Sequence record: OZ035775.1
Source: Sashavirus BDX09P1
DNA length: 58,371 nucleotides
Direction: 5' to 3' (one strand)
Under the pieces are notes generated by a model that saw only the letters and a list, made by a program, of their open reading frames with translations, was not told the DNA's origin and made no database searches. How positions within the stretch are numbered: position 1 is the first letter of the stretch; every line of letters starts with the position of its first letter. This document shows, piece by piece, positions 39,263-44,898 of the stretch. A program made the translations under genes and the position numbers.

Positions 39263-39647
39263 TGTGTTAATCACCGTTGTTGCAACTGTTCTGGTATTAG
39301 GCGCTGGTGCGTATACGTGTTACCACGCGGGATATAAAGCACGGGTAAATGAAGAACGTCAGGAACGTTTAGACGATGCACAACGGGAACAACAACGGTT
39401 AAAGGCACAACAGGAACTGGCAGATGATGTACTTCGTGGTTTAGCTGACTGGTCGCAGAATACTAAAATCGTGGAAATACGACATGAAAAGACTAATACT
39501 GTTTTTCGTAACGAGTGTCTTACTTCTGAATATCAACGCTTGTACAACGAACGAGTTACCGAAGCAGAAGCCCGTTTATCAGGCCGCATTAGTTCAGAAG
39601 TGTCAGACCGAAAACCTTCCACGGCTGAACGGTCTGACAGGAAGTGA
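39249..39647 (+). CDS. i-spanin (Rz-like)
   Basis: N-terminal TM then charged coiled-coil region. Confidence 0.55.
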   Translation: MTTRSVLITVVATVLVLGAGAYTCYHAGYKARVNEERQERLDDAQREQQRLKAQQELADDVLRGLADWSQNTKIVEIRHEKTNTVFRNECLTSEYQRLYNERVTEAEARLSGRISSEVSDRKPSTAERSDRK

Positions 39648-39732
39648 TTCAACAGATGTTAATGATCAGTGGTTAGATATTTATTTCAAATGTGCAACTA
39701 TTCACAACGCATTAGTAGACAGTCTTCAGTAA
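39484..39732 (+). CDS. o-spanin (Rz1-like lipoprotein), embedded in i-spanin gene
   Basis: Signal peptide with lipobox-like LNINAC, starts inside 39249-39647 in another frame and extends past its stop. Confidence 0.55.
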   Translation: MKRLILFFVTSVLLLNINACTTNELPKQKPVYQAALVQKCQTENLPRLNGLTGSDSTDVNDQWLDIYFKCATIHNALVDSLQ

Positions 39733-39945
39733 ATCTTCAACCGACACCTCAATCCACGATGCGGGAACCGGATATTCAGTCCGGTACATGAACAAGGATG
39801 TTCCTATCAACCCGTGTGGATCTGTTTTAATCCCTCGCATGTTCAACAATGGAAAAAACTGTTCGCGTGTTTGTGGCAATCTTGCAAAGCGTCCTGTCGG
39901 GCGTTTAGCAGGATCCATAGGGTTGAATTCAACGATTGTGGACAT
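39712..39945 (-). CDS. hypothetical protein
   Basis: Track ORF. Confidence 0.4.
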   Translation of the reverse strand: MSTIVEFNPMDPAKRPTGRFARLPQTREQFFPLLNMRGIKTDPHGLIGTSLFMYRTEYPVPASWIEVSVEDLLKTVY

Positions 39946-39951
39946 AGTGAG

Positions 39952-40392
39952 TTACTCCAGTGAATAGATTGTAATTTCGCAATCAATGTTGTTCAATTTT
40001 TCATAAATCAAAGGTCTGACTACTGACCATGATAAACCACCATTTGAACAACCTAATCGTGGTAATGAAACTGAACGTATTTTAAAGTGTCTGATGACTT
40101 TTATAAGATCGTCCAAACCATATTCAATCCATTGTAATTGTGAAGGATTACACCAATGTTCTTTAGTTGGAAAATTAATAATTATCTGATTGTTTTCAGA
40201 TGTGACAAACATTTTTCCAACTTTTACACGGTGTTGTTCACAGGCTTTTCGGTACTGTTTAAAATTGTCAGGAAAGGTTCTTTTAAACGCTAATGCAATA
40301 CCTTTACCCATTACACCAACGCAATTCACGGTGTTTACTAGAGCATGTGAATTGCTTTTAAGAAGGTCCCCCGTGACTTCTATTACTGACAT
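39952..40392 (-). CDS. macro domain protein
   Basis: VNTVNCVGVMGKGIALAFK ... LPRLGCSNGGL matches macrodomain ADP-ribose-binding signature; AGGAG RBS. Confidence 0.65.
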   Translation of the reverse strand: MSVIEVTGDLLKSNSHALVNTVNCVGVMGKGIALAFKRTFPDNFKQYRKACEQHRVKVGKMFVTSENNQIIINFPTKEHWCNPSQLQWIEYGLDDLIKVIRHFKIRSVSLPRLGCSNGGLSWSVVRPLIYEKLNNIDCEITIYSLE

Positions 40393-40897
40393 AACAATAA
40401 CTCCTGTACGCTTGTCTTTTTATTTTCTGATAGTCGGAAACTTTTACAGATCTTGTTTTACATTCACCAATACGATGTGGGTCGAAAATAAACATCACCT
40501 GTGAACGGTCATTTCCTCCTGCTGGTAACCCGGTGTCAGGGTCTACAAATGCTATACGGCCTTTAAACACCCATAGTTCCGAACAATGTGTCAGTGCTTT
40601 GTGAAACCAGTCTGCAGACGTCATAGCGTTCACAAGTAATAACGAACCAGTTCCCTGATAAACAGTGGTTATTATTTTATTAACCCAGGGGGACGGATCG
40701 CTGTATGGTGGGTTACACCAGACGAATCCACCACCATTACTTTGAACAATCGAATGCCAGTCTTTATTCAGACTATCAGTGATGAACAACGAACATTTAG
40801 CGTTAGAACCATCGGTACACACATCAAGAACAAGTGGGAATTCACGAGAAACGTTATCAATAAAATCCCACGGTGTTTCCCAGTTGTCTTTAGCCAT
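40358..40897 (-). CDS. DNA N6-adenine methyltransferase (phage Dam family)
   Basis: WETPWDF ... DVCTD ... WCNPPYS motif; start at MAKDNWETP with GGAGAG RBS. Confidence 0.8.
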   Translation of the reverse strand: MAKDNWETPWDFIDNVSREFPLVLDVCTDGSNAKCSLFITDSLNKDWHSIVQSNGGGFVWCNPPYSDPSPWVNKIITTVYQGTGSLLLVNAMTSADWFHKALTHCSELWVFKGRIAFVDPDTGLPAGGNDRSQVMFIFDPHRIGECKTRSVKVSDYQKIKRQAYRSYCYVSNRSHGGPS

Positions 40898-41243
40898 GTT
40901 CCGGTACACTCTCCACGCTGTAATAAACAGGAATACCCAGACGTTCAGCTTCTGCAATTTCTGCCAGCGTACCAGACGAACGACGATAATCAGGAAGCAC
41001 CAGAACAGCGTCACAGCGGCGCATAATTTCTAACGTACCTGATAGGTAGTATTCAGGTTGTATATTGCGTAAACCGCCGTCAAAGTCCCACAATTCGGTG
41101 TTCTTGTGAGGGATAACCGGGAACCACCCCGGACGTTGTAAAGCAAGTCGTTTACCTGTCTGTTCAGCGCGCGACACGTTACGGGATGTTTTAAGCGCAC
41201 AATCAGCACGATAAGGCCCGGCAATGTAACAGAGTTTAATCAT
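40890..41243 (-). CDS. nucleoside 2-deoxyribosyltransferase-like protein
   Basis: MIKLCYIAGPY...AVLVLPDY...SSGTLAEIAEAERLGIPV pattern; 8-bp overlap with Dam. Confidence 0.45.
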   Translation of the reverse strand: MIKLCYIAGPYRADCALKTSRNVSRAEQTGKRLALQRPGWFPVIPHKNTELWDFDGGLRNIQPEYYLSGTLEIMRRCDAVLVLPDYRRSSGTLAEIAEAERLGIPVYYSVESVPEHG

Positions 41244-41583
41244 GGTTGTTTTCCTGCATCTGTAAGAACACAATCATTGCGGCACGGAGTGGGTTAGCGT
41301 GAATAACACATGAGTCATCCGCATAAATCATTTCTGTCGCATCACCAGTAATTCCATCAATATCAGCATTTTCAGGTAAAGCGATCCACGATGAATCTGT
41401 TGAAACAATACTAATTTTATTTTCAATAATAATCGGCATTGCATCAGTCGGATTAGTGGTATATTTGAAACCACCCCGTGACCAACAACCTTGGATATCT
41501 TTATCGTCAGTATGAACACCGTAAATAACTTTCAAAACAAGGCGGTCAATATCTCTATCATTCATCTTATTGTAATCAGTCAT
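41236..41583 (-). CDS. hypothetical protein
   Basis: Track ORF. Confidence 0.4.
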   Translation of the reverse strand: MTDYNKMNDRDIDRLVLKVIYGVHTDDKDIQGCWSRGGFKYTTNPTDAMPIIIENKISIVSTDSSWIALPENADIDGITGDATEMIYADDSCVIHANPLRAAMIVFLQMQENNHD

Positions 41584-42112
41584 GACGATTCATCCCTTCT
41601 AACATGTCCCAGATAAGCGCAACACGACGCGGGTCAGTGCTGATAGTGTGTAAAGTTTCACATCCGTAATGCCATCCCCAACGAACGGATAATTCTGACA
41701 ATAGATAACCACGGGAATTAGCCAGTTCAGCCAGTTCACCGGGTTTAAACGTCGTTGTATTAGGTTCTGTAAGAACACGAGTACCACAGATAGCGTCACT
41801 GATGCGCCACGGTTTCATCAGGTCATCAACTTTGTACCAGTTACTGATACTGATTTCAGACGTTCCCCAGCGTGCAGCCAGTTTAAGACGTTCCTGACGG
41901 GCCGGGAACATTGGCATCTGTGGTAAACGCAGTTGGATCTGTTCTGCAGGTTCAAACATGTCATCGTCTGTTAAACGAAATTCACCACGGTCATCAATAT
42001 AAAAACCACGGGAACGACCATCACGGGTGAACCCGTCAACACGGTTATAAATTTTACCGGGAGTAAAGACACCAATCGGTGAACCAGTTACGAATTTGTG
42101 TGAAGTATGCAT
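41576..42112 (-). CDS. hypothetical protein
   Basis: Track ORF. Confidence 0.4.
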   Translation of the reverse strand: MHTSHKFVTGSPIGVFTPGKIYNRVDGFTRDGRSRGFYIDDRGEFRLTDDDMFEPAEQIQLRLPQMPMFPARQERLKLAARWGTSEISISNWYKVDDLMKPWRISDAICGTRVLTEPNTTTFKPGELAELANSRGYLLSELSVRWGWHYGCETLHTISTDPRRVALIWDMLEGMNRHD

Positions 42113-42151
42113 TGTTATCGCCTCAATAAGTTTTAAATAATTCTATACGGT

Positions 42152-44008
42152 TTACCGAAGTGGTGCAACGAGTTTTTCAGCTTCTTTGATGTAAAAATCA
42201 TAATTGAGTGTTGCCCGGTTAAAACGTTTCATGTCGTTGCACTCAGTGGTCAACCAACCTTTACACACTGACATACGGCGTTCAGGCGCATCAGGGTTCA
42301 GTTTCAGTGATTTTGCCAGCGGTGGCATGACTTTTGTTAATGGTGCACCATCTGTGCTGACATAATAACGGGTAATGTTCTGAACCTGTTTGTCACCCCA
42401 TAACAACTTGCTGTTACGCGGCACTTTCGTCACCAACATAAAATCGTGAATATCGTCGTGTGATGTTATAAAATCACGAATATCTTTATTATGTACCAGT
42501 GCTGCTTCAGCCGCTTTTGCGACAACCTGCATACTGTGGTTTTGATGCCAACCAAGGTCAACGCTGTGACAATAAGCGCCTTTACGTTTAACTTTCTTAC
42601 CACCTTCGTAAACAGCGATGTAGTTGTTTACGTCGCGAATAAACATCACGTCATAAATCGCTTCTTCAAGCTGGAGTCTGGTTAATTTTTCCCACGCGTG
42701 ACGAACCTGTTCTACTTGTCCGGTAAACACTCGTGGTACGTAAACCGTAAGACCATCTGTGTTAGCCTGGATCATGGACAAACCAGGGATTTTCAGAAGT
42801 TCTTCAGCCAACATGCACAAAAGTAACTGTCCATTAATCGTAATAGCCATTGTATAAGCAGGATCGTAGAATGGACTGTATACGTTATTACTGTCACCAT
42901 ACACACCGTTTAACGCCAGTTTTAACATTGCATTTTCTGGTGTACCTTTCGGGTAACTGGAACGCATGTCGTAAACATTTTTATAAATGGTGCAAAATTG
43001 TTTTCCCAGATGTGCCGGATAAAGTTCATTACTGATCGCAAGGTTCGGGTAAAAACTGGCAACGTCCAGATCGATGATCACATAATTTTCACTGGACCTG
43101 ATAGTTTGAGACTCAATAGACCCGTGGATACCACCCGTACCAAAATCAAACGAGAACCCGTTAATGTCTGCACTTAAATCTGTAAATACACCTTTTGTTT
43201 CAGTGATGACCTGTTGACGTAACCAGTTAAGAACACGATTAAATTCAGGCTGTTCAAAACGGACATAAGGGAAAATCACGCTGTTTAATGCGATTGATAG
43301 TCTGTGCGTCTGTCGTGGTTTTCTACTACCCGGTTCGAAACATTGAATACCTGATTTTTCAAGTTCCATGATGAAATAGTCTTTACCGATTTTCGTGTCG
43401 TTATGGTTCATGAAATTACGACCGTATTTAGCAGAAAGTTCACGACGAAAATCTATCAGCTTTTTACTGTGTTTATAAAACATCAAAGTCGCTTTCAAAT
43501 CGTGCATCAGATATTGACGAAGCGTATCAATTTGAGAATCGGTTAAATAAGTCCCTGGTGTAAACGGAAGGTCTTCAATGTTTTCCATTCTCATATTGAA
43601 TTCAAGTGTTTTCAGACTTGTTCGTTTTGCCTGATTGTCGAAATGATGAATTTTGTACAAATCAAGCTGGGGAACTATCCAGTCTTTTTCCCACACCATA
43701 TGAGCAAAACGATTTTCATCACCGGCGTTAATTATCGAATCGCCTTTTTTGTAAATGTCTGCGTTGGTGATATACATGATGTTGTTCAAAATAGAATGCT
43801 GAACAGGATAGTCGTAACCCAGATTGTTATAACCAACTTCTTCAGCACGATGTTCACGCAAATATTCCGTGAAGAAGTAAAAAGCCTGACGATCATCGCG
43901 ACGATTTGAAATCTCAAAAATATAAGGCGTTTCAGTTAACGCGTGAATAGCACCGAACAGGAAAACATTAGGATAGTTTTCAATATCGTGAACGTAAGTA
44001 TCTGACAT
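42152..44008 (-). CDS. DNA polymerase, compact exonuclease-less type
   Basis: Motif-like strings DLDVASFYPNL, KLALNGVYGDSNN, QANTDGLTV in polymerase A/B/C order; family A versus B not resolved. Confidence 0.6.
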   Translation of the reverse strand: MSDTYVHDIENYPNVFLFGAIHALTETPYIFEISNRRDDRQAFYFFTEYLREHRAEEVGYNNLGYDYPVQHSILNNIMYITNADIYKKGDSIINAGDENRFAHMVWEKDWIVPQLDLYKIHHFDNQAKRTSLKTLEFNMRMENIEDLPFTPGTYLTDSQIDTLRQYLMHDLKATLMFYKHSKKLIDFRRELSAKYGRNFMNHNDTKIGKDYFIMELEKSGIQCFEPGSRKPRQTHRLSIALNSVIFPYVRFEQPEFNRVLNWLRQQVITETKGVFTDLSADINGFSFDFGTGGIHGSIESQTIRSSENYVIIDLDVASFYPNLAISNELYPAHLGKQFCTIYKNVYDMRSSYPKGTPENAMLKLALNGVYGDSNNVYSPFYDPAYTMAITINGQLLLCMLAEELLKIPGLSMIQANTDGLTVYVPRVFTGQVEQVRHAWEKLTRLQLEEAIYDVMFIRDVNNYIAVYEGGKKVKRKGAYCHSVDLGWHQNHSMQVVAKAAEAALVHNKDIRDFITSHDDIHDFMLVTKVPRNSKLLWGDKQVQNITRYYVSTDGAPLTKVMPPLAKSLKLNPDAPERRMSVCKGWLTTECNDMKRFNRATLNYDFYIKEAEKLVAPLR

Positions 44009-44088
44009 AATAAAACCCTGATAAGTAAATGGGGCACCATGGCCCCATGTCTGTTTAAAGCGGTATGTCGTCCCAGTTCCAGTAACTA

Positions 44089-44898
44089 TCAGTAACCGTT
44101 ACCGTTGAGAAAATTCGGGGCCGGGGTGGTCATTACCATATAACCGTTAGCGATCAGTTGTTCATCGTTCCAACCTTGCGCAATAAACTGTTCGTAAGTT
44201 GCACCACCTGCTTTTTCAGTCATCACCTTCACAGGTGCTGCCGCTGGTGTAGGCGCTGCTACAGGTGCTGCCGCTGGTGTAGGCGCTGCTACAGGTGTTA
44301 CGCCGATCGGACGTGCACCTTCAGGCATTGCAGGAGCAGCACCGAACACTGAGGCAGGAGCCGGACCAGAAATGATTTCTTCACCTGCATAAAGCAATTG
44401 CGCCATTTCCATGTTGATATACACACCAGCCTGATTACCTGTACGACCGTTTGCAACAGATGATCCGCTGATACGGTAGTAATAACCTTTTTTCGCCAGA
44501 TTTTTATCAATAACTGGTTGGTACGCTGCGTTATAAACAGGACACGCGTCAATAGCCACGTTGCGTGAGAAACCAATTACCCAGTGACCAGCATAACCAG
44601 TTTTACTCGCATGTTTCGGATCGTCACCGTTAATAATTTTCCATGCGAAAGTGGGTTGTTGTGGTTCGCCGTTCACATAGTGTGAGTTAGCTGCTCGCAT
44701 GATGGCCTGGAACACCGCACCAAGTTCACCTTGTTCTTCCCACCAGTTCGCAGCTGTTTTAGGAAATGCCAGACCAACCCACCAGTTATGTTTTTCAGGT
44801 GCTAACGGTTTATTTTCGTGGTCATGAGTGTTGATATCGAAAAAAGAACCGCCAACCAGACGACCAACCGGAGTTACAAAAGATTCTTTCTGTGCCAT
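44089..44898 (-). CDS. DUF2815-like phage protein (SSB-like partner of DUF2800)
   Basis: N-terminus MAQKESFVTPVGRLVGGSFF...; Pro/Ala repeat linker and conserved C-terminal peptide. Confidence 0.55.
   Translation of the reverse strand: MAQKESFVTPVGRLVGGSFFDINTHDHENKPLAPEKHNWWVGLAFPKTAANWWEEQGELGAVFQAIMRAANSHYVNGEPQQPTFAWKIINGDDPKHASKTGYAGHWVIGFSRNVAIDACPVYNAAYQPVIDKNLAKKGYYYRISGSSVANGRTGNQAGVYINMEMAQLLYAGEEIISGPAPASVFGAAPAMPEGARPIGVTPVAAPTPAAAPVAAPTPAAAPVKVMTEKAGGATYEQFIAQGWNDEQLIANGYMVMTTPAPNFLNGNGY
44231..44298 (-). repeat. 30-bp in-frame tandem repeat (about 2.3 copies)
   Basis: ACAGGTGCTGCCGCTGGTGTAGGCGCTGCT x2 encoding APTPAAAPVA. Confidence 0.8.

What the first reader, a model, noticed from the sequence alone, without database searches (positions are those of the whole stretch)
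39952..41243. Overlapping macro domain, Dam methyltransferase and deoxyribosyltransferase-like genes
Three minus-strand genes overlap by 35 bp and 8 bp: a macrodomain protein, a phage-type N6-adenine MTase (NPPY motif) and a nucleoside 2-deoxyribosyltransferase-like protein. A macrodomain can reverse ADP-ribosylation and the other two act on DNA or nucleotides. Together they look like a counter-defence or DNA-modification island.
Basis: partly seen in the sequence, partly recalled or inferred. Interest (0 to 1): 0.55.

Follow-up and report, generated by a model that had tools for sequence, protein, structure and literature searches.

The report
Phage copy of DarG antitoxin macrodomain
A 9NA-like E. 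coli phage carries, at the end of its replication operon, a stand-alone copy of the enzyme domain that bacteria use to switch off their DNA-ADP-ribosylating DarT toxin; it sits beside an ordinary phage Dam methylase and a conserved small nucleotide-enzyme gene, and it is a new example of a counter-defence type (AdfM) described in 2025-2026.

Summary
Three minus-strand genes lie at 39952-41243, overlapping by 35 and 8 bp: macro (146 aa), PF05869 Dam with NPPY (179 aa) and an NDT-fold protein (117 aa).

The window is a Nonanavirus/Sashavirus-type siphophage, 97% identical to Escherichia phage PJ16.

The macro protein is specifically a DarG-type macrodomain:
- 50-53% identical to the crystallised DarG macrodomains (E 1e-41).
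- It matches only the N-terminal half of the DarG models.
- Catalytic N23 and K77 are present, as are H79/W80.
- It lacks the DarT-binding domain, and there is no darT next to it.

It therefore most likely acts like AdfM, the phage anti-DarT2 macrodomain shown in PhiKZ and T4, removing ADP-ribose from thymidines of replicating phage DNA.

The three genes are not one co-inherited unit:
- The macro gene is a 447-bp presence/absence cassette with 33.5% GC, bounded by a TATGTC repeat.
- The methylase slot holds unrelated methylases in relatives, and the macro occurs behind two kinds of them.
- The NDT-like gene is conserved backbone.
- The 8-bp overlaps run along the whole operon, and the 35-bp overlap follows from the cassette junction.

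Verdict: a new member of a known kind, of modest interest. Nothing points to hypermodified DNA.

The parts
39952..40392 (-). Orphan DarG-type macrodomain gene (146 aa), AdfM-like; predicted DNA (thymidine) ADP-ribosylglycohydrolase
   Evidence: Pfam Macro 1e-19. PDB 5M3I and 5M31/5M3E (DarG macrodomains) at E 1e-41/1e-40. NCBIfam DarG NF048014 at 225 bits over model positions 4-147 of 338. PADLOC DarG at 231.6 bits over 4-144 of 329. N23, K30, T76, K77, H79, W80, G114, N117 and G118 correspond to TaqDarG N22, K29, T79, K80, H82, W83, G117, N120 and G121. A GGAG lies 8 nt upstream of the ATG.
39946..40392 (-). 447-bp presence/absence cassette: the macro ORF plus a 6-nt spacer, bounded by a TATGTC direct repeat at the two start codons. 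It carries its own GGAG for the downstream gene.
   Evidence: BLASTN and junction comparison with the Dam-only relatives PDP46, AVIO78A and Bas82. The same junction is seen behind PF01555 methylases. GC is 33.5% against 43.5% for the window.
40358..40897 (-). Phage orphan DNA N6-adenine methyltransferase (PF05869 Dam family, 179 aa, NPPY at residues 62-65). The last residues (SNRSHGGPS) are read from inside the macro cassette.
   Evidence: PF05869 at 4e-31/108 bits. TIGR01712 at 91.8 bits, just under its 97.05 cut-off. phrog_111 at 2.6e-47. PADLOC orphan MTase. C-terminus compared with the 173-aa Dam of relatives.
40890..41243 (-). Minimal NDT-fold protein (DUF7768/DUF4406, 117 aa). Conserved backbone gene; probably a nucleotide N-glycosidase or transferase of unknown substrate.
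   Evidence: Pfam and PHROG matches. AF2 model pLDDT 96.1. Foldseek top hits are nucleoside 2-deoxyribosyltransferases, 7M5H, 1T1J, MilB/BcmB and DNPH1. G9, S89, G91 and E95 are invariant and Y6 and D78 nearly invariant. E95 aligns with the GTxxE Glu of BcmB. The gene is present in every 9NA-like relative inspected.
39712..39945 (-). gp60-like 77-aa gene directly downstream (context). It is always the gene after the methylase/macro slot; function unknown.
   Evidence: phrog_25980. Confined to 9NA-like phages, with weak relatives also beside methylases. AF2 pLDDT 87.7 with no fold match.
41236..44008 (-). Upstream genes of the same leftward replication operon (context): NinX-like (41236-41583), 178-aa hypothetical (41576-42112) and DNA polymerase (42152-44008)

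Best explanation
These are three independent modules packed at the distal end of the phage's leftward replication operon.

(1) The 146-aa macro protein is an orphan DarG-type macrodomain: the enzymatic half of the DarG antitoxin, without its DarT-binding half and without a toxin gene. It is expressed together with the replication genes. It most likely hydrolyses the ADP-ribose that the host toxin DarT2 attaches to thymidines in single-stranded phage DNA. That would restore replication and packaging and so defeat DarTG2 abortive-infection defence, as shown for AdfM of PhiKZ and T4. The domain identity, the active-site conservation and the cassette structure are shown here. The substrate and the in vivo effect are inferred.

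(2) The Dam is an orphan phage adenine methylase occupying a slot that every relative fills with some methylase. It most likely self-methylates phage DNA against restriction. GATC specificity is only an inference from distant family members.

(3) The NDT-like DUF7768 protein is a conserved replication-module enzyme with an NDT/DNPH1-type active site. It probably acts on the (deoxy)nucleotide pool. It is not specifically tied to the other two.

The 35-bp overlap arose because the macro cassette sits exactly at the start codon of the next gene, so the Dam frame now runs on into the cassette.
For: Macro identity:
- E 9.5e-42 and 1e-40 to the DarG macrodomain structures, against 1e-7 or weaker for any other macro class.
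- the DarG equivalog and PADLOC DarG models are matched only over their N-terminal ~145 positions.
- 50-53% identity to Taq/Mtb DarG. Eleven of the 15 Taq pocket or mutated residues are identical, including catalytic K80 (K77 here) and N22 (N23 here). Three of the other four match Mtb DarG or PhiKZ AdfM (D9 in both, I32 in Mtb) or are a small-residue change (S116 against A126 in PhiKZ); A35 replaces Q34.
- 52.8% identity to the macro domain of a canonical darT(DUF4433)-darG operon.

Sufficiency of a macrodomain alone: the DarG macrodomain on its own rescues DarT toxicity and K80A abolishes this (PMC5179494). PhiKZ gp104 AdfM removes DarT2 ADP-ribose and protects the phage (PMC13309987). T4 Tk.4 AdfM is needed on DarTG2 E. 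coli (bioRxiv 10.1101/2025.11.20.689424). The window protein is homologous to both (30% identity, E 2e-26; 22%, E 9e-6).

Modularity:
- the slot holds methylases of 173, 259, 393 or 506 aa.
- those other methylases are PF01555.
- the indel junctions are precise.
- macro relatives at 80-81% identity sit behind PF01555 methylases. Flanking-gene divergence is similar (77-91%). Macro GC is 33.5%.

Context:
- this is a replication operon, and other orphan DarG-like macros sit beside PolA or gyrase genes on phage-sized contigs.

NDT-like gene.
Against: Nothing here is experimental.
- No DarT2-modified substrate was tested, and macrodomains of similar sequence can differ in substrate.
- Q34 and G119 of TaqDarG are replaced (A35, S116), and G119E impaired TaqDarG.
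- The NCBIfam DarG score (225) is below the full-length cut-off (250). This is expected for a half-length protein, but it means the protein is formally not an equivalog.
- Only 1 of about 25 catalogued 9NA-like genomes carries the gene, so it is dispensable on most hosts.
- Dam specificity and the NDT-like substrate are unknown.
- TIGR01712 is missed by 5 bits, and PF05014 is below its threshold.
Confidence: 0.72

Rival explanations
1. The macrodomain reverses a different ADP-ribosylation or processes a free ADP-ribose metabolite. Candidates are protein or RNA ADP-ribosylation by another host defence ART, O-acetyl-ADP-ribose or ADP-ribose-1''-phosphate. It would then counter a system other than DarTG2, or serve metabolism.
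For: PHROG and database labels call this family 'phosphatase', 'Appr-1-p processing' or 'O-acetyl-ADP-ribose deacetylase'. TARG1, the next structural relative, acts on proteins. Two pocket positions differ from TaqDarG.
Against: Those labels are generic transfers. Similarity to DarG is about 35 orders of magnitude stronger than to TARG1, MacroD or viral macros. W80, the Trp proposed to stack on the modified thymine, and K77 are conserved. More distant phage homologues (30% and 22% identity) are experimentally anti-DarT2.
Confidence: 0.15
2. One reading: macro, Dam and the NDT-like enzyme act together as one DNA-modification or counter-defence pathway. For example, base exchange or hypermodification plus methylation, with the overlaps reflecting obligatory co-expression.
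For: The genes are adjacent, co-oriented and translationally coupled. NDT-fold enzymes handle glycosidic bonds of nucleotides. In all 9NA-like phages the NDT-like gene directly precedes a methylase.
Against: The macro is absent from nearly all relatives, while NDT-like plus a methylase persist. The methylase family itself is exchanged (PF05869 against PF01555) next to a nearly unchanged NDT-like gene (89-91% identity). DUF7768 homologues in other phages sit beside RusA/SSB, RNase T/PolA or exonuclease/MazG rather than methylases or macros. The 8-bp overlaps are general along the operon, and the 35-bp overlap is explained by the cassette junction. No base-modification genes such as DpdA-, glycosyltransferase- or hydroxymethylase-like genes were seen in the stretch examined.
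Confidence: 0.06
3. The macro gene is a neutral or decaying passenger, a fragment of a captured darG with no current function.
For: It is rare among relatives, has foreign GC (33.5%) and lacks the C-terminal half of DarG.
Against: The ORF is intact with an RBS. All key catalytic residues are retained. Copies at 80-81% identity in diverged relatives are the same length (146 aa) with conserved active-site motifs, which indicates purifying selection over the same timescale as the flanking genes. Hundreds of stand-alone homologues of 145-160 aa exist.
Confidence: 0.05

Closest known systems
AdfM (anti-DarT factor macro): PhiKZ gp104 and chimallivirus homologues (Cell Rep 2026, PMC13309987); T4 Tk.4 (bioRxiv 10.1101/2025.11.20.689424)
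   Same: A phage-encoded, stand-alone DarG2-like macrodomain of about 150 aa with no toxin partner. The Asn and Lys active-site residues align: N23/K77 here and N23/K78 in PhiKZ. The predicted job is the same, removing DarT2 ADP-ribose from DNA.
   Different: Only 30-32% identical to PhiKZ AdfM and 19-22% to T4 AdfM, but 50-53% to bacterial DarG. It therefore looks like a separate and more recent capture. The host phage is a small siphovirus (Nonanavirus/Sashavirus type) with no phage nucleus. The gene is a strain-variable 447-bp cassette rather than a lineage-wide gene. It is untested experimentally.
DarG antitoxin of DarTG2 (T. aquaticus and M. tuberculosis DarG; PDB 5M31/5M3E, 5M3I; Mol Cell 2016, PMC5179494)
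   Same: The macrodomain is clearly of this family (E 1e-41; 11 of 15 pocket residues identical; K80, N22 and W83 equivalents present). The isolated DarG macrodomain is sufficient as antitoxin.
   Different: There is no C-terminal DarT-binding domain: 146 aa against about 340-360 aa. There is no adjacent darT (DUF4433) gene. It is encoded by a lytic-type phage rather than a bacterial TA operon.
AdfN / NADAR-type orphan antitoxins of T4-like phages against DarTG1 (Nat Commun 2025, PMC11825919)
   Same: The same evolutionary logic: the phage carries the enzymatic antitoxin domain of a DarTG system without the toxin.
   Different: A different fold (NADAR against macro) and a different lesion (guanine-ADPr from DarT1 against thymidine-ADPr from DarT2).
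Phage Dam family PF05869/TIGR01712 (T1/Tls Dam, Stx-phage Dam)
   Same: A small orphan N6-adenine methylase with NPPY, widespread in coliphages (1,697 phage records).
   Different: At most 39% identical to any member outside the E. coli 9NA-like clade, so target sequence cannot be transferred. The C-terminal tail has been rewritten by the macro cassette.
Nucleoside 2-deoxyribosyltransferase / DNPH1 / MilB-BcmB superfamily; Pfam DUF7768 and DUF4406
   Same: Same Rossmann-like fold (TM 0.58-0.69 normalised to the query). Conserved N-terminal Tyr, an Asp, and a Glu in a S-x-G-x-x-x-E motif that aligns with the nucleophile motif.
   Different: Much shorter (117 aa against about 150-160 aa). Below the PF05014 threshold. 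No characterised member of DUF7768/DUF4406 was found in the literature searched. The substrate is unknown.

Membership tests
DarG (DarTG2 antitoxin) | DarG-type macrodomain with catalytic Lys (Taq K80) and Asn (N22) | tested here: met
   E 1e-41 to 5M3I/5M31; K77 and N23 aligned; H79/W80 conserved.
DarG (DarTG2 antitoxin) | C-terminal DarT-binding domain (full length about 330-360 aa) | tested here: not met
   The protein ends at residue 146. Matches cover only positions 4-147 of 338 (NCBIfam, 225 bits, below the 250 cut-off) and 4-144 of 329 (PADLOC). The downstream 77-aa protein has no DarG-like sequence or fold.
DarG (DarTG2 antitoxin) | Operon partner darT (DUF4433 ADP-ribosyltransferase) | tested here: not met
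   The neighbours are Dam and gp60-like, and neither shows a DUF4433 hit. Compare the canonical operon in L022.
AdfM (phage anti-DarT2 macrodomain) | Phage-encoded stand-alone DarG2-like macrodomain with an intact active site | tested here: met
   The window is a 9NA-like phage. It has a 146-aa single-domain protein whose active site aligns with PhiKZ N23/K78.
AdfM (phage anti-DarT2 macrodomain) | Detectable homology to the validated AdfM proteins | tested here: met
   BLASTP against PhiKZ gp104: 30% identity, E 2e-26. Against T4 Tk.4: 22% identity, E 9e-6.
AdfM (phage anti-DarT2 macrodomain) | Removes DarT2-made ADP-ribose from DNA and protects the phage from DarTG2 | not testable with these tools
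   Needs biochemistry and plaque assays.
Phage Dam (PF05869 / TIGR01712) | Family HMM above the curated threshold, and the NPPY catalytic motif | tested here: met
   PF05869 scores 108.4 bits against a 28.1 cut-off. NPPY is at residues 62-65. TIGR01712 scores 91.8 against 97.05, narrowly missed.
Phage Dam (PF05869 / TIGR01712) | GATC-specific N6-adenine methylation | not testable with these tools
   Only 29-39% identity to other family members. The window has 210 GATC sites, observed/expected 0.83, which is uninformative.
Nucleoside 2-deoxyribosyltransferase (PF05014) | Family HMM above the gathering threshold | tested here: not met
   17.2 bits against 28.8. The protein does pass DUF7768 (35.6 against 26) and DUF4406 (30.8 against 22).
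Nucleoside 2-deoxyribosyltransferase (PF05014) | NDT fold with the conserved nucleophile Glu and N-terminal Tyr | tested here: met
   AF2 pLDDT 96.1. The Foldseek top hits are NDTs, MilB and DNPH1. E95 is invariant, Y6 and D78 are nearly invariant, and E95 aligns with the BcmB GTHIE motif.
Nucleoside 2-deoxyribosyltransferase (PF05014) | Deoxyribosyl transfer or N-glycosidase activity on a defined substrate | not testable with these tools
   No characterised DUF7768/DUF4406 member was found.

The most novel reading that the evidence does not exclude
The corner between the replication operon and the lysis cassette of 9NA-like phages could be a dedicated, hot-swappable DNA-protection locus whose fixed parts also serve counter-defence. 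Those fixed parts are the minimal NDT-fold DUF7768 enzyme upstream and the 77-aa gp60-like protein downstream. DUF7768 might clear defence-generated or ADP-ribose-derived nucleotides. gp60-like might act as a partner or regulator of whichever methylase or macro cassette is inserted. That would define two new anti-defence protein families. Alternatively, the DarG-like macro might have a broader or different target than DarT2.
Probability: 0.08. Interest if true: 0.6.

Novelty: new member of a known kind. Interest (0 to 1): 0.3.

Why it matters
It extends enzymatic anti-DarTG2 counter-defence (AdfM) from jumbo and T4-like phages to small siphoviruses. The copy here is so close to bacterial DarG (over 50% identity) that capture of the antitoxin's enzymatic half by a phage is plainly visible.

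The gene is a clean 447-bp presence/absence cassette, so natural near-isogenic pairs already exist in culture collections: PJ16 or this phage (macro+) against Bas82, PDP46 and AVIO78A (macro-). That makes the DarTG2 prediction cheap to test.

The locus also shows how methylases and anti-toxin domains are shuffled at one hotspot. For annotation, 'hypothetical protein' or 'phosphatase' labels on this family should read DarG-like/AdfM-like.

Tried and rejected
1. 'Split DarG' idea: that the 77-aa gene after the macro (the same length as ICP1 AdfB, which mimics the DarG C-terminus) supplies the missing DarT-binding half. Rejected for lack of support. There is no NCBIfam, PADLOC or Pfam hit. tblastn finds it only in 9NA-like phages, plus weak relatives next to methylases, and not in ICP1. 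The AF2 model (pLDDT 87.7) has no PDB fold match; best E 1.7. It is present whether or not the macro is.

2. Macro-Dam functional pairing. Rejected: the same macro (80-81% identity) follows PF01555 methylases in other 9NA-like contigs.

3. The overlaps as evidence of an island. Rejected.

4. Searched for the macro gene in 5,426 complete E. coli genomes by DNA: no match. So no prophage or chromosomal source was identified, and protein mode is not available there.

5. IMG/VR scan for close macro relatives: only 46-54% identical loci.

6. GATC statistics to infer Dam specificity: uninformative, observed/expected 0.83.

7. Sequence search of the Dam against PDB: no hits.

8. Literature search for DUF4406/DUF7768/DUF1937 function: nothing relevant.

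9. The promoter and terminator scans gave no more sites than shuffled sequence, so the operon structure is inferred from gene order only.
Full report
**What the window is.** Megablast of 39500-42200 finds 24 phage records, all 9NA-like siphoviruses (Nonanavirus, Sashavirus, Carvajevirus and relatives) of Escherichia, Salmonella and Klebsiella. The best is Escherichia phage vB_EcoS_PJ16 at 97%.

The finding lies at the distal end of a leftward operon. That operon also encodes a DUF2800/PD-(D/E)XK nuclease, a DNA polymerase, a 178-aa protein and NinX. Across a divergent junction lie a helicase and a primase-polymerase/D5-type protein. The operon converges on the rightward lysis cassette of holin, endolysin and spanins.

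**Observation check.** The three minus-strand ORFs, their coordinates and the 35-bp and 8-bp overlaps are exactly as described.

| Gene | Coordinates | Size | Best family evidence |
|---|---|---|---|
| Macro | 39952-40392 | 146 aa | Pfam Macro 1e-19 |
| Dam | 40358-40897 | 179 aa | PF05869 4e-31; NPPY at residues 62-65 |
| NDT-like | 40890-41243 | 117 aa | DUF7768 and DUF4406 above threshold; phrog_355 9e-26 |

For the NDT-like protein, PF05014 itself is below threshold. PJ16 is annotated with the same three gene calls.

**The macro protein is a DarG macrodomain.**
- Its best solved-structure matches are the M. tuberculosis and T. aquaticus DarG macrodomains (5M3I, 5M31/5M3E), at E 9.5e-42 and 1e-40.
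- Every other macro class (BT1257, TARG1, SCO6735, viral macros) scores 1e-7 or weaker.
- The NCBIfam DarG equivalog model gives 225 bits and the PADLOC DarG model 231.6 bits. Both cover only the N-terminal ~145 of ~330 model positions.
- A canonical darT(DUF4433)-darG operon on a Sagittula plasmid has a macro domain 52.8% identical to it.

I aligned the protein with Taq and Mtb DarG, PhiKZ gp104 and T4 Tk.4. It keeps N23 (Taq N22), K30 (K29), T76/K77 (T79/K80), H79/W80 (H82/W83), and G114, N117 and G118 (G117, N120, G121). Differences are D9 (as in Mtb DarG), I32 (as in Mtb), A35 and S116. The alignment reproduces the published PhiKZ active-site numbering (N23, K78), which validates it.

In TaqDarG, K80 is the catalytic lysine and N22A is the next most damaging mutation. 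W83 is proposed to stack on the modified thymine. The isolated macrodomain is sufficient to rescue DarT toxicity (PMC5179494).

**What is missing.** The protein stops at 146 aa, so it has no DarT-binding C-terminal domain. Its neighbours are Dam and a 77-aa protein, so there is no darT. It fails two defining features of DarG. It fits the recently defined AdfM class instead: stand-alone DarG2-like macrodomains of phages.
- PhiKZ gp104 removes DarT2 ADP-ribose from DNA and protects chimalliviruses (PMC13309987).
- T4 Tk.4 is the single gene required on DarTG2-expressing E. coli (bioRxiv 10.1101/2025.11.20.689424).

The window protein is homologous to both (30%, E 2e-26; 22%, E 9e-6) but much closer to bacterial DarG. 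This suggests a separate capture.

Hundreds of stand-alone 145-160-aa homologues exist in metagenomes. The contexts I inspected are phage-like, next to PolA or gyrase genes.

**Anatomy of the locus among relatives.** The gene order NDT-like, then methylase, then gp60-like is conserved. The methylase differs between relatives.

| Relatives | Methylase in the slot |
|---|---|
| 9NA, Sasha | 393-aa PF01555 |
| Klebsiella phage VLCpiS10a | 506 aa |
| Carvaje | 259 aa |
| E. coli phages PDP46, AVIO78A, Bas82 | 173-aa PF05869 Dam |

Only PJ16 and this window have Dam plus macro. Of 638 phage records with any macro hit, only PJ16 exceeds 60% identity.

BLASTN and direct junction comparison show that, relative to the Dam-only phages, the window has an extra 447 bp (39946-40392).
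- This is exactly the macro ORF plus a 6-nt spacer.
- It is bounded by the repeat TATGTC, which contains the start codons of macro and of gp60-like.
- The macro uses the old GGAG/ATG of gp60-like, and the cassette supplies a new GGAG for gp60-like.
- The Dam frame formerly ended 17 bp into gp60-like (…YVHNR*). It now runs 35 bp into the macro (…YVSNRSHGGPS*).

The 35-bp overlap is therefore a by-product of the junction. The changed tail lies outside the Pfam Dam domain (residues 2-143).

Two metagenomic 9NA-like contigs carry macros that are 80-81% identical in the same position. These sit behind PF01555 methylases of 417 and 363 aa and have the same ATGTC junction. Flanking proteins are comparably diverged: gp60-like 77-81%, hyp178 84-87%, i-spanin 76-77% and NDT-like 89-91%.

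The macro has therefore lived in this lineage for a long time as a presence/absence polymorphism. It is not tied to Dam. Its GC content (33.5% against 43.5%) marks it as foreign.

**Dam.** This is a standard small phage orphan methylase. The family is in 1,697 phage records, including Stx phages and T1-like phages, but identity outside this clade is at most 39%.

GATC specificity is an inference from my knowledge of T1 and Stx-phage Dam, not something tested here. GATC occurs 210 times in the window, with observed/expected 0.83, which is uninformative.

Every relative keeps some methylase at this spot while swapping its type. That argues for self-protection against restriction as the selected function.

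**NDT-like gene.** AlphaFold2 with 61 homologues gives pLDDT 96.1. Foldseek's best PDB matches are nucleoside 2-deoxyribosyltransferases, the uncharacterised 7M5H and 1T1J, MilB/BcmB CMP N-glycosidases and DNPH1, with query-normalised TM 0.5-0.69.

G9, S89, G91 and E95 are invariant, and Y6 and D78 nearly invariant. E95 aligns with the GTxxE nucleophile motif of BcmB. It is therefore probably an active N-glycosidase or transferase, but it is about 40 residues shorter than characterised enzymes.

It is present and 89-97% conserved in all relatives, whatever sits downstream. In unrelated phages, homologues sit next to RusA/SSB, RNase T/PolA, or 5'-3' exonuclease/MazG-like/helicase genes. This points to a replication or nucleotide-pool role. 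I found no published characterisation.

**Mechanism proposed.** During infection of a DarTG2-bearing host, freed DarT2 ADP-ribosylates thymidines in single-stranded phage DNA and blocks replication or packaging (summarises this).

The phage macro is co-transcribed with the polymerase operon. It would hydrolyse the thymidine-ribose bond through K77 and restore the DNA. This is an enzymatic antitoxin mimic. Because it has no DarT-binding domain, it cannot sequester the toxin.
- Shown here: domain identity, active-site conservation, cassette structure and operon position.
- Inferred: substrate, timing and phenotype.

**Rivals.**
- (a) A different ADP-ribose substrate or a different defence, about 0.15.
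- (b) A cooperative three-gene DNA-modification pathway, about 0.06. The independent variation of the three modules argues against it.
- (c) A functionless passenger, about 0.05. Conserved length and active site across 80%-identical copies argue against it.

**Verdict.** The 'island' or co-function reading and the hint of modified DNA are not supported.

This is a new member, in a new phage group, of a counter-defence class published in 2025-2026. It is useful mainly because natural macro+ and macro- near-isogenic phages exist for a direct test. Interest is modest at 0.3.

Noticed in passing
window 39712-39945 (minus): The 77-aa gp60-like protein always follows the methylase/macro slot in 9NA-like phages. 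Its only weak relatives elsewhere also lie beside or overlap a DNA methylase gene: Flyfo podovirus and Morganella Henu15 at about 35% identity, and Proteus phages at 64% over the first 30 aa. It may be a methylase-associated small protein. The AF2 model (pLDDT 87.7) has no PDB fold match.
   Followed up: partly
window 40358-40897, and the equivalent slot in L003, L004, L007, L008, L009, L011 and L021: The methylase slot is a swap hotspot. PF01555 enzymes of 259, 363, 393, 410, 417 and 506 aa, or a 173/179-aa PF05869 Dam, occupy the same position between nearly identical flanks. The length differences among the PF01555 enzymes suggest exchanged target-recognition inserts.
   Followed up: partly
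window 41236-41583 (minus): The NinX-like gene upstream is also variable. PJ16 has a 75-aa hypothetical protein there instead of the 115-aa NinX, which accounts for the uncovered part of the 97% match. The L009 NinX is only 38% identical, and L011 lacks it.
   Followed up: no
whole window: CTAG is strongly under-represented: 23 observed against 59.7 expected, ratio 0.38. Other 4-bp palindromes range from 0.67 to 1.32, and CCGG is over-represented at 1.32.
   Followed up: no
window 44029-44048: A perfect 7-bp GC-rich palindromic hairpin (ATGGGGC…GCCCCAT) lies between the 269-aa gene and the DNA polymerase gene. Both strands flag it as terminator-like. It may be an intra-operon attenuator or a protein-binding site.
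   Followed up: no
window 42152-44008 and 44089-44898 (minus): The 618-aa protein annotated as DNA polymerase in relatives has no Pfam hit at E<=0.001, and neither do the adjacent 269-aa and 253-aa proteins. This is a divergent replication module. The literature search turned up papers on polymerase swapping that mention Nonanavirus.
   Followed up: no
PDB 7OMU: A 406-aa 'macro domain-containing protein' in the PDB carries a DarG-like macro domain at its C-terminus (residues 230-386) rather than at the N-terminus. This is a different architecture for the same domain.
   Followed up: no
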